This document shows positions 44,501 through 47,500 of a stretch of DNA of 64,000 bases, piece after piece. Where the stretch lies: the NCBI RefSeq assembly GCF_964204645.1, contig NC_134026.1, forward strand, positions 31,334,250 to 31,398,249. The letters are read 5' to 3'. This stretch comes from Tubulanus polymorphus. Lineage: Eukaryota > Animalia > Nemertea. The notes under the pieces are model-generated. The model saw only the letters and a list, made by a program, of their open reading frames with translations. It did no database searches and was not told where the DNA came from. The translations under genes and the position numbers were made by a program. The first letter of the stretch is position 1. Every line of letters starts with the position of its first letter.

Positions 44501-47500
44501 TGGTGGCCCTCTAACAGAAAATTTAGGACAAAAGGGGACTTTTCCGGTCCATATCAGGTTCCATATTTTTTGTCTTTTAGAAATGTTCTTTGTAAAAAAA
44601 GGAACCAGACTTTTGGAAAGCACATTCGAAATTTGAAGATGGCGGACAAGTACACGCGGTCCAAGCCCCTAAATACGCCATTGATTGTAATGGCATTAGG
44701 CAAATAGATTTATATTCCATTTATAGATTGAATTGTGAATTATTATGAAACTGCGATGAATCAGAGATTGAGCTGGTGTTAATGTATCGCGCGGTGGTTT
44801 GATCTACATGAAATAGAGTTTAATGAAATTAATTGATGAGTTTGTCACATTTCAATCACGGTTTTGTTCACTGACTGTATACAGGTCCATTTCGGTTCTG
44901 TTCCCCTGAAATGATGTTTTCATTCATTGTTTTACCGCGCGCAGAATTCATCGGAGATTGCGGAACCTTTGTTTGTCGACAGTAAACATTATTCGTTCAC
45001 TCCGCGCCTGATATTGACTGGAAAATTCTGTCAAAGCGGATTCTATTATCTTGAGGTTGGTGTGAGTGAATACAGGGTTGTATTACCACCACTCTTGTAT
45101 CATCAATAAATATGTGTCTATATGAATATGACATTGAAATTTGACAATAAGAGCACATCCACACTTTACAGATTTAGGAGAGGTCAGTAATCAGTGAATA
45201 TCGAGGCCCTAGGCTCTTATTACTGCGAATATTGCATCTCGCAACCAAAATAAAATGATAAACAATGAAATGACACTGAAATATGACGATGATATTGCCT
45301 CCAAACTTTAGATTTGGAGTTAAAACTAACTCATAACAGATTCCAGTATTGGAAATCAGCTTAACCTCAACCCGAGGGTTAGCTTACCTAATACTTCAGT
45401 AATCTCCGGATCGAGTTAGAACTGGTCTATAGATCTATAAATCCAGTTTATATGAATGGACTTGAATGAGATTGAAACCCACTGATTTCCTAATGTATAC
45501 ACCATTAACGTATGCATACAGGTTATAATATAAAACTTCAACTTTTCAACTTTTGTATTTCATCGCTACAGCACCGTAGCTGTGATGGTCATTATGTTGA
45601 TGACTGTGACCATGGACGTATAAACTAGTTTATACGTCCATGCTGTGACTTACACTTAATAGATTGATTTGCTAATACAACAAATAGAGGGGACTTTAGT
45701 AATGCGACGACTTGACTGTAGACACAGATATCTTTTTACTTTAGGAAATGAATACTTAATCTGCTTACCATGTTCATCATTAGATCTACAGGACTTTGAT
45801 TGTTCGGATTCATTTGATGAATCAGTCTTTTTATCATATCGAATGTTGGTCGGTTTTCGGGTAGATTATTAGAACACTGCTGGATCAACTGAAGATATTA
45901 AATAAAATAGATGAAAACTTCTCCAAACTCTCGCACTAAGAATGAAGAACAAAGTCTGAAATATTTCTGTGAGCTGATAGTTTGTTCAACGTTAATCGCC
46001 ATCTTCAGGAATACTGTCTCAGGATCACATTTCGGAATCTATATTTGATGTGGGGGGATTCTATATGATATTTACAACACGGACTCTGAATGTTTCATCA
46101 ATGGTTATAATGAGGACAACATCAGTATTCCTGAAGATGACTATTAGGATAAAGTCGAAACGTTGAATAAACTACACTAGCTCAAGGAATACAGTATTCC
46201 TGAAGATGACTATTAGGATAAAGTCGAAACGTTGAATAAACTACACTAGCTCAAGGAATACAGTATTCCTGAAGATAACTATTAGGATAAAGTCGAAACG
46301 TTGAATAAACTACACTAGCTCAAGGAATACAGTATTCCTGAAGATGACTATTACAATATGGTCGAAACGTTGAATAAACTACACTAGCTCAAGGAATACA
46401 GTATTCCTGAAGATGATTATTAGGATATAGTCGAAACAAGAGAAATCCCACAATAAGTTCAGCCAAAACGAGAAACTTGAATAGAAGAGTTATATATATT
46501 TGCGCAACGTTTCGGCTAAAGACTATTAGCCATCATCAGGCGTACTGTACTAGCCAGTACGCCTGATGATGGCTAATAGTCTTTAGCCGAAACGTTGCGC
46601 AAATTATATATAACTCTTCTATTCAAGTTTCTCGTTTTGGCTGAACTTATTGTGGGATTTCTCTTGTTATCTTCTTACACGGATATTGTGTATCTTCTCG
46701 TCTCTTATAGTCGAAACGTTGAATAAACTACACTAGCTGAAGGAATACAGTATTCCTGAAGATGACTATTAGGATAAAGTCGAAACGTTGAATAAACTAC
46801 ACTAGCTCAAGGAATACAGTATTCCTGAAGATGACTATTAGGATAAAGTCGAAACGTTGAATAAACTACACTAGCTCAAGGAATACAGTATTCCTGAAAT
46901 AGTTGAAACATTGAATAAACTACACTAGCTCAAGGAATACAGTATTCCTGAAGATGACTATTAGGATAAAGTCGAAACGTTGAACAAACTACACTAGCTC
47001 AAGGAATACAGTATTCCTGAAGATGACTATTAGGATAAAGTCGAAACGTTAAATAAACTACACTAGCTCAAGGAATACAGTATTCCTGAAGATGACTATT
47101 AGGATAAAGTCGAAACGTTGAACAAACTACACTAGCTCAAGGAATACAGTATTCCTGAAGATGACTATTAGGATAAAGTCGAAACGTTAAATAAACTACA
47201 CTAGCTCAAGGAATACAGTATTCCTGAAATAGTTGAAACATTGAATAAACTACACTAGCTCAAGCAATCATTTCAGACTCATTTTATTCTTAGTGTGCTG
47301 GGATTTAATATGATTATTTCGACACGGACTCGCGAATCAATGCTGCTAAAGTTAGTAGTGAGTTGATAGTTTCACCTGGTTGTATTTTGTTGGACACGGA
47401 CAAATCATTTCTTTATCTCCAGTTTCGGGATGAACCGGTAATGGCGGCTTCCATCCGGGTTTCAATTCATCCAGGTATTCATCCTTGAAAAATTGATTCA

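What the first reader, a model, noticed from the sequence alone, without database searches (positions are those of the whole stretch)
46426..46717. Ribozyme inside a ribozyme: palindromic Penelope-like hammerhead element inserted into the core of an array unit
Seen: a 268-bp insert flanked by an exact 12-bp duplication TATAGTCGAAAC that spans the host unit's stem II 3' strand and GAAAC core. The insert is a ~113-bp inverted repeat (one 1-nt indel, 7-nt loop) plus a 37-nt tail. It carries a distinct hammerhead (CTGATGA, 6-bp stem II GGCTAA/TTAGCC, GAAACGTT) on both strands. Its layout HHR...GTGGGATTT...ACACGGA parallels that of the host family, suggesting a distant relative. Established: inverted pseudo-LTRs with a ~30-40-bp tail and a hammerhead are characteristic of Penelope-like elements. 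Inference: a young, severely truncated PLE insertion, possibly with a target preference for hammerhead sequence. It would also put a >110-bp hairpin (a potential ADAR or siRNA substrate) into the cyclase pre-mRNA.
Basis: partly seen in the sequence, partly recalled or inferred. Interest (0 to 1): 0.8.

Follow-up and report, generated by a model that had tools for sequence, protein, structure and literature searches.

The report
Penelope end-piece inside hammerhead array
A 268-base mirror-image insertion with a clean 12-base duplication sits inside one unit of a tandem ribozyme repeat; it is likely the ordinary end-piece of a common Penelope-type jumping gene that probably landed there by chance, and its own ribozyme motif is predicted to be locked in a long hairpin.

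Summary
A run contig spans the loop with no mismatch, which argues against an assembly artefact. The hammerhead fold is supported by four compensatory pair changes against the host motif, though no Rfam hammerhead model matched. Run contigs show an abundant family with young identical copies, two end classes one tail apart, another head-to-head copy, and a TATA box plus initiator-like motif just upstream of where both arms begin. That is the published layout of Penelope-like insertions. Dozens of other copies end in unrelated flanks, so strict targeting of hammerheads is not supported; a weak bias is untested. The insert lies in an intron of a receptor guanylyl cyclase gene. The hairpin (-200.6 kcal/mol) should bury both ribozyme copies. 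No autonomous partner was found, and no expression or editing data were seen. Verdict: real, probably young, ordinary; a new member of a known kind.

The parts
46426..46437 (+). Left copy of the 12-bp target-site duplication (host stem II 3' strand and GAAAC); its last 3 nt overlap the left arm (microhomology)
46435..46547 (-). Left arm: inverted, tail-less copy of the element's end repeat (113 nt); same AT-run form as the high-depth identical contigs
46503..46542 (-). Minimal type I hammerhead motif, minus-strand copy (sense in the cyclase pre-mRNA; predicted buried in the hairpin)
46548..46554 (.). 7-nt junction between the arms; spanned by one X1 contig at about single-locus depth
46555..46668 (+). 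Right arm (114 nt, one extra T in the AT run); starts at the CAGT of a predicted initiator, TATA box of longer family members not included
46560..46599 (+). Minimal type I hammerhead motif: stem I 46560-62/46597-99, core CTGATGA 46563-69, stem II 46571-76/46583-88, GAAAC 46589-93, predicted cut after GTT 46596
46669..46705 (+). 37-nt one-sided tail holding a small predicted hairpin (46676-46692) with the ACACGGA motif shared with the host family
46706..46717 (+). Right copy of the target-site duplication
46399..46747 (+). Interrupted 69-nt host unit (46399-46437 and 46718-46747); uninterrupted units with the same 5' variant exist elsewhere in X1
45953..47340 (+). Host element: inverted damaged 5' piece, leader, tandem 69-nt hammerhead units, 3' tail-bearing end; same family as 7158-7949
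45889..47375 (-). Predicted 1487-nt GT-AG phase-0 intron of a receptor guanylyl cyclase gene, between exons reading ...PTKYNQ and LIQQC...

Best explanation
The insert is a head-to-head pair of end repeats with a one-sided 37-nt tail and a 12-bp target duplication, from an abundant repeat family of this genome, and it is likely the minimal product of a Penelope-like retrotransposon enzyme that probably landed in the host hammerhead array by chance. Inferred steps: (1) a family RNA starts at the CAGT at 46555-46558; (2) the enzyme nicks the two target strands 12 nt apart, leaving two 3' overhangs; (3) the bottom-strand end primes reverse transcription at the far side of the tail hairpin and the top-strand end (AAC, complementary to the element's GTT) primes at the near side, 37 nt earlier; (4) both copies run to the RNA's 5' end and are joined through the 7-nt loop; (5) fill-in makes the duplication. 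The product has no TATA box and no open frame, and in a transcript of either strand the antisense arm is made first, so the ribozyme is predicted never to fold. Shown: anatomy, family abundance, the two end classes, unrelated flanks of other copies, the upstream TATA motif. About 0.9 for the Penelope-type identity, about 0.65 for this exact two-strand route.
For: Anatomy equals the published layout: inverted 5' copy, 30-40-bp one-sided tail, variable duplication (PMC8557442 passages; PMC3846280 passages: 9-bp duplication, 31-bp tail, TATA 20 bp from an initiator, one Penelope nested in another). In vitro the anole enzyme cuts and extends both strands and starts at two internal sites that bound the tail, in an AC-rich stem-loop 111-118 nt after an ATG at the start of stem II (PMC11167929); here the tail hairpin begins 108 nt and the arms end 100 and 137 nt after the ATG at the same place. 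Run contigs: tail ends at 46704 in 36, 15 and 12 contigs of X1-X3 with agreement 0.41-0.48 and only ATCA in common; tail-less ends at 46435-46439 in 6 of 7 listed rows with unrelated flanks; a second head-to-head copy in X4 record 28. Loose ends before 46555 in 48, 13 and 8 contigs; the X1 and X2 consensus and a 132-nt contig at depth 375 put TATAAATA 31 nt before the A of TCAGT. Four compensatory pair changes separate insert and host motifs. Arm-arm hairpin -200.6 against -10.7 kcal/mol for the hammerhead stems. Host-family DNA is 3.3% of the window, and a 12-bp duplication would overlap an intact GAAAC core at 0.5% of positions.
Against: Rfam gave no hammerhead match at E up to 1. The transcription start is inferred from motifs only, the X3 consensus row lacks the TATA, and the Drosophila Penelope promoter is TATA-less (PMC2377424 passages). 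The first four loop letters match the family's upstream sequence, which fits a fold-back or a copy running past the start as well; AGC in the loop is unexplained. The arm difference lies in an AT run and could be later slippage. No listed contig spans either duplication junction (most rows are not shown: 1945, 276). Covariation was counted on a structure read from these same related sequences.
Confidence: 0.65

Rival explanations
1. Same Penelope-like family and chance landing, but the palindrome arose by fold-back: one cDNA primed at the tail end ran to the RNA's 5' end, folded on a small natural palindrome there, copied itself and was joined to the other target end by the 3-nt AAC/GTT match.
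For: The family's start region reads GTACT-C-AGTAC in the depth-375 contig and the insert's centre reads GTACT-AGCC-AGTAC. Self-priming was proposed from palindromes at inverted junctions in rotifer Penelopes (PMC3846280 passages).
Against: The extra T is in the tail-bearing arm only, while the left arm has the family form; a fold-back from that arm would copy a first-strand slip into both (weak: later slippage also explains it). The left arm stops where other, unrelated copies also end, which is a start site of reverse transcription in the anole enzyme.
Confidence: 0.2
2. The family prefers hammerhead or pseudo-LTR DNA as a target, cutting at the centre of AAC/GTT and priming through the AAC match, so nesting in another family's array is no accident.
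For: The top-strand break falls in the middle of the host's AACGTT; only about 0.5% of window positions would give such an overlap. The Drosophila endonuclease was reported to need the tail sequence for recognition, and the anole model allows nicking in its own pseudo-LTR (PMC11167929).
Against: 36, 15 and 12 contigs leave the tail end, and 6 of 7 listed rows leave the tail-less end, into flanks that are not a hammerhead core. One event was picked after the fact from a family with many copies. The nearest host tail motifs lie 350 and 900 nt from the site. Copies that hit this same host site would be laid through and not counted as loose, so a weak bias is not excluded.
Confidence: 0.07
3. The whole palindrome (arm, loop, arm, tail) is itself a mobile non-autonomous unit, MITE-like or retrozyme-like, that is copied as one piece.
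For: Other head-to-head copies exist (X4 record 28; opposite-strand joints at 46555/46556 in all four runs). A further 130 of summed depth covers 46553-46580 in X1 and was not resolved.
Against: The loop-spanning contig has depth 44.3, like contigs with long unique flanks (12-45), against 3087-3311 for arm contigs. The other head-to-head copies have different junctions. The ends are not symmetrical terminal repeats.
Confidence: 0.05
4. The palindrome is a fold-back or assembly artefact.
For: Long inverted repeats inside tandem arrays are error-prone (general knowledge). X1 may be the sample the window came from, so it is not independent; X2-X4 show no depth over the loop at 98% likeness.
Against: A perfect 12-bp duplication, exact restoration of a 69-nt unit, a one-sided tail that ends where dozens of other copies end, and a loop-spanning contig built from raw data at ordinary depth.
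Confidence: 0.02

Closest known systems
Endonuclease-positive Penelope-like element insertions, Penelope/Poseidon type (Pen2a_Av of Adineta vaga, PMC3846280; general layout in PMC8557442; passages read)
   Same: Head-to-head inverted end repeats, one-sided 30-40-bp tail, target duplication of variable length, putative TATA about 20 bp before an initiator, small palindrome at the 5' junction, nesting of one element in another.
   Different: No coding body at all between the arms; both arms start at the same base; the partner enzyme is not identified.
PAc, Poseidon of Anolis carolinensis (PMC11167929; parts 1-2 of 4 read)
   Same: ATG at the start of stem II, cut site 28 nt on (26 in PAc), AC-rich hairpin at +108 to +124 (111-118 in PAc), two end classes one tail apart, template not cut at the ribozyme.
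   Different: Here the frame from that ATG closes after five codons; no sequence comparison with PAc was made.
Minimal type I hammerheads of metazoan PLEs (PMC4209133; parts 1-2 of 4 read)
   Same: Long stem II, short stem I, extra base after A9, G10.1-C11.1 pair, palindromic 15.2-16.2 with no stem III; pairs of motifs on opposite strands 100-700 bp apart were already noted in Schistosoma.
   Different: The two cores here are only 23 nt apart and form one perfect hairpin; U at the cut position; no activity test.
Animal non-LTR retrozymes (PMC7229834 passages; bioRxiv 10.64898/2026.07.22.740005, parts 1-3 of 5)
   Same: Fits the host array: tandem hammerhead units (69 nt, within the 51-972 bp range reported) related to PLE end repeats.
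   Different: The insert itself is not tandem, and both families carry minimal rather than canonical hammerheads.

Membership tests
EN+ Penelope-like element | Single ORF with telomerase-like RT and GIY-YIG endonuclease, in the element or in a partner sharing its end repeat | tested here: inconclusive
EN+ Penelope-like element | Inverted 5' copy of the end repeat next to the direct copy | tested here: met
   second example in X4 record 28.
EN+ Penelope-like element | 30-40-bp tail on one end only, with genomic copies ending at either side of it | tested here: met
   37 nt; ends at 46704 and at 46435-46439, the mirror of 46664-46668.
EN+ Penelope-like element | Target-site duplication of variable length | tested here: met
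   12 bp here; lengths at other loci not seen.
EN+ Penelope-like element | Promoter in the end repeat | tested here: inconclusive
   TATAAATA 31 nt before the A of TCAGT in the X1 and X2 rows, not in the X3 row; no RNA 5' ends seen.
Minimal type I hammerhead (PLE type) | CUGANGA and GAAA core, stems I and II kept by compensatory change, palindromic ACGU in place of stem III | tested here: met
   5 of 11 pairs change on both sides, 4 of them in the insert; 0 of 500 shuffles reach this, with the tool's caveat on related sequences. Rfam models did not match.
Minimal type I hammerhead (PLE type) | Self-cleavage as a dimer or with protein help | not testable with these tools
   Folding predicts burial in the arm-arm hairpin at this locus.
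Non-LTR retrozyme | Two or more consecutive head-to-tail units each with a full hammerhead | tested here: not met
   The insert is head-to-head; the host array does meet it.
MITE or fold-back DNA transposon | Terminal inverted repeats at both ends and a unit copied whole | tested here: not met
   One end carries a 37-nt tail; the loop contig is at about single-locus depth while arm contigs are about 70-fold deeper.

The most novel reading that the evidence does not exclude
One Penelope-like family has a real bias for the hammerhead cores of a related family, cutting at GAAAC/GTT and priming through the shared AAC-GTT match, so that ribozyme-bearing retroelements disable each other's arrays and plant a silencing hairpin there.
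Probability: 0.07. Interest if true: 0.6.

Novelty: new member of a known kind. Interest (0 to 1): 0.2.

Why it matters
As it stands it is a tidy example, not a discovery. Its use is as a clean footprint of Penelope-like integration: two ends one tail apart, a common 5' end at a predicted transcription start and a 12-bp stagger, which is what the in vitro work on the anole enzyme predicts. With tens of identical young copies, this family could be used to decide between two-strand priming and fold-back for the inverted repeats, a step still open in the papers read. A true bias for hammerhead DNA would be new, but the evidence here points against it.

Tried and rejected
No whole genome is held, so copies were studied only through run contigs. 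No RNA holder was listed, so expression, editing and small RNAs were not examined. X2-X4 show no depth over the loop at 98% likeness; contigs show presence only, so this is at most a hint of polymorphism. Rfam: 6 matches, all microRNA hairpin models below their gathering scores, no hammerhead. Exact insert pattern in metagenome contigs: 0. Spaced three-motif pattern: 26 metagenome loci, 0 of 26 with a hammerhead core in the 45 nt upstream, all dropped as chance; 0 in viral contigs. Sequence kinship beyond the hammerhead: local alignment of 46600-46705 to six host-family copies was reached by 20, 11, 179, 264, 44 and 1 of 300 shuffles, and a profile of four host tails listed 23 hits at E up to 50, none on the insert. 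PDB searches for the two exons flanking the intron gave nothing significant (best kinase match E 0.88; none relevant). One energy (-10.2) used a wrong seventh pair and was replaced. I first read the letters before 46555 as a splice acceptor, then preferred TATA plus initiator; an acceptor is not excluded. Earlier notes on this place, genome and sequence: none. Literature searches for nesting in, or targeting of, hammerheads by Penelope elements and for siRNA from such hairpins gave no paper on the point; the library lacks most subscription papers, and figures and bioRxiv supplements were not seen.

Full report
Observation. The 12-mer stands at 46426-46437 and 46706-46717 and cannot be extended. 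Between them lie 268 nt: a left arm (46435-46547, whose first 3 nt are also the last 3 of the duplication), a 7-nt loop, a right arm (46555-46668) with one extra T, and a 37-nt tail. Taking out the insert and one duplicate leaves a 69-nt unit with 3 differences from the array consensus; ten neighbouring full units differ from it by 0-4. No second copy of the insert family lies in the window.

Is it real? Four coded runs of one study hold the region, all as contigs. In X1 a 59-nt contig spans the loop with no difference at depth 44.3, in the range of contigs with long unique flanks (12-45). X1 may be the source sample, and no listed contig spans either duplication junction (most rows are not shown). 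Together with the duplication and the restored unit, an artefact is unlikely.

Hammerhead. The motif has the core CTGATGA, an extra T, a 6-bp stem II closed by G-C, GAAAC, GTT and a 3-bp stem I. In an alignment of the insert with 12 host-family copies, 5 of 11 pairs change on both sides, 4 of them in the insert; 0 of 500 shuffles reach this, and slid registers give 1-2. The structure was read from these related sequences, so this is support, not a probability. Rfam found no hammerhead at E up to 1; my inference is that its models expect a stem III. The form matches the minimal hammerheads of metazoan PLEs, which were inactive as monomers and weak as dimers in vitro (PMC4209133, parts 1-2 of 4).

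The family. Laying contigs on loop, right arm, tail and 42 host bases at 85% likeness gave 1161, 275, 164 and 199 contigs, host-family contigs included. Of 369 loose-end rows 24 are shown. At 46704, 36, 15 and 12 contigs of X1-X3 leave the stretch with agreement 0.41-0.48; the three consensus rows share only ATCA and none reads as a hammerhead core. At 98% likeness on the left side (22 of 33 rows shown), 7 rows lie at 46435-46439: one is the tail itself, six are unrelated flanks (the X2 and X3 rows are the same). So copies end on either side of the tail. X4 record 28 is another head-to-head copy with a different junction, one arm ending at 46663 and the other running into the tail. Arm contigs identical to the left arm have depth 3087-3311 in X1, 679-906 in X2 and 165-248 in X3, which suggests tens of identical copies and a young subfamily; depth is only a rough guide.

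The common 5' end. Both arms begin at the same C. At that place 48, 13 and 8 contigs have loose letters. The X1 and X2 consensus rows and a 132-nt X2 contig at depth 375 agree on an upstream sequence with TATAAATA 31 nt before the A of TCAGT; the X3 row does not show it. A TATA 20 bp before an initiator-like motif was described in a rotifer Penelope end repeat (PMC3846280 passages); the Drosophila promoter is TATA-less (PMC2377424 passages). I infer that the arms are copies that ran to the RNA's 5' end. That end is upstream of the ribozyme, so the template was not cut at the ribozyme site, as found in vitro for the anole element.

Mechanism. The anole enzyme cuts and extends both strands and starts at two internal sites that bound the tail, in an AC-rich stem-loop 111-118 nt after an ATG at the start of stem II (PMC11167929, parts 1-2 of 4; three text supplements searched without a hit; figures not seen). 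Here a small hairpin lies at 46676-46692, starting 108 nt after the matching ATG, and the arms end at +100 and +137. Two nicks 12 nt apart, each priming one copy, give this insert directly. Fold-back at the small natural palindrome around the start is the main rival. The extra T lies only in the tail-bearing arm while the left arm has the family form, which leans weakly to two independent copies. The frame from the ATG closes after five codons, and the TATA box is not included, so the copy is probably a dead end.

Targeting. The top-strand break is in the middle of the host's AACGTT, and AAC matches the arm end. But dozens of other copies sit in unrelated flanks. Host-family DNA is 3.3% of this window, and 0.5% of positions would give a duplication overlapping an intact GAAAC core, so some hits are expected from an abundant family. 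One Penelope nested in another is already in print. Copies at this same host site would not show as loose ends, so a weak bias remains untested. Searches found no paper on hammerhead targeting.

Kinship with the host. The two families share the hammerhead fold, the GGGATTT...ACACGGA pair at the same spacing (4 matches in the window: 3 host, 1 insert) and a tail hairpin. Beyond the core, alignment scores are marginal (1 of 6 comparisons at 1 of 300 shuffles, the rest 11-264 of 300) and a host-tail profile missed the insert. Distant kinship is plausible, not shown. The host array fits animal non-LTR retrozymes or stacked PLE ends.

Gene context. Minus-strand exons match the kinase-homology profile at positions 58-98, 105-144 and 151-202 and the cyclase profile at 2-60, 62-114 and 108-146, in order. 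Two further exons flank a GT-AG phase-0 intron, 45889-47375; they have no significant profile or PDB match of their own, so the intron is predicted. The host element fills 1388 of its 1487 nt and is antisense to the pre-mRNA. The insert adds a hairpin of -200.6 kcal/mol against -10.7 for the hammerhead stems; 109 and 111 pairs have probability above 0.99 in the two strands. On either strand the antisense arm is transcribed first, so the ribozyme is predicted to stay buried. Editing or siRNA production is possible on general grounds and was not examined.

Partner. No RT or GIY-YIG domain was found in 166 window frames of 62 or more residues, and outside scans gave nothing. Membership among Penelope-like elements therefore rests on structure, not on an enzyme.

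Verdict. A real, probably young, promoter-bounded Penelope-type end-piece insertion nested in a hammerhead array. Earlier AI notes from other genomes describe similar cases; they are unchecked and were read after my reading was noted. New member of a known kind; interest 0.2.

Noticed in passing
window 7158-7949 and 45953-47340: Two loci of the same host family share a leader ending in CATCAGT and near-identical 69-nt hammerhead units, so the array seems to spread as a unit; older fragments lie near 2727-2780, 8634-8892, 22431-22560, 26654-26681, 36080-36113 and 57847-57970.
   Followed up: partly
window 45889-47375: The host element makes up 1388 of the 1487 nt of this predicted intron, so the intron was about 100 nt before these insertions.
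   Followed up: partly
window 45953-46017: The host element itself begins with an inverted copy of its end repeat, with stem II and the GAAA core partly deleted; the same head-to-head logic as the insert.
   Followed up: partly
window 46886-46939 and 47216-47268: Two shortened 54-nt host units lack stem II and recur 330 nt apart, which suggests block duplication within the array.
   Followed up: no
run X4, records 30 and 31 (laid on 46566-46670): A 436-nt contig at depth 3448 and a 1642-nt contig at depth 246 carry the family's end repeat and continue in other sequence; the run's kind is not on record. They might lead to a longer element or to transcripts that hold a copy.
   Followed up: no
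window 46584 (table 3): A minority T-to-A variant (19, 7, 7 and 9 contigs) removes the in-frame stop after the stem II ATG and breaks the same stem II pair that most host units lack; such copies may be closer to a coding partner.
   Followed up: no
window 57920-63767: Exons of a COMM-domain gene, a ribosomal protein L9 gene and a riboflavin kinase gene.
   Followed up: no
window 6612-6700: A further CTGATGA core and a weak match to the host-tail profile (E 0.0075) on opposite strands; possibly an old element of a third family.
   Followed up: no
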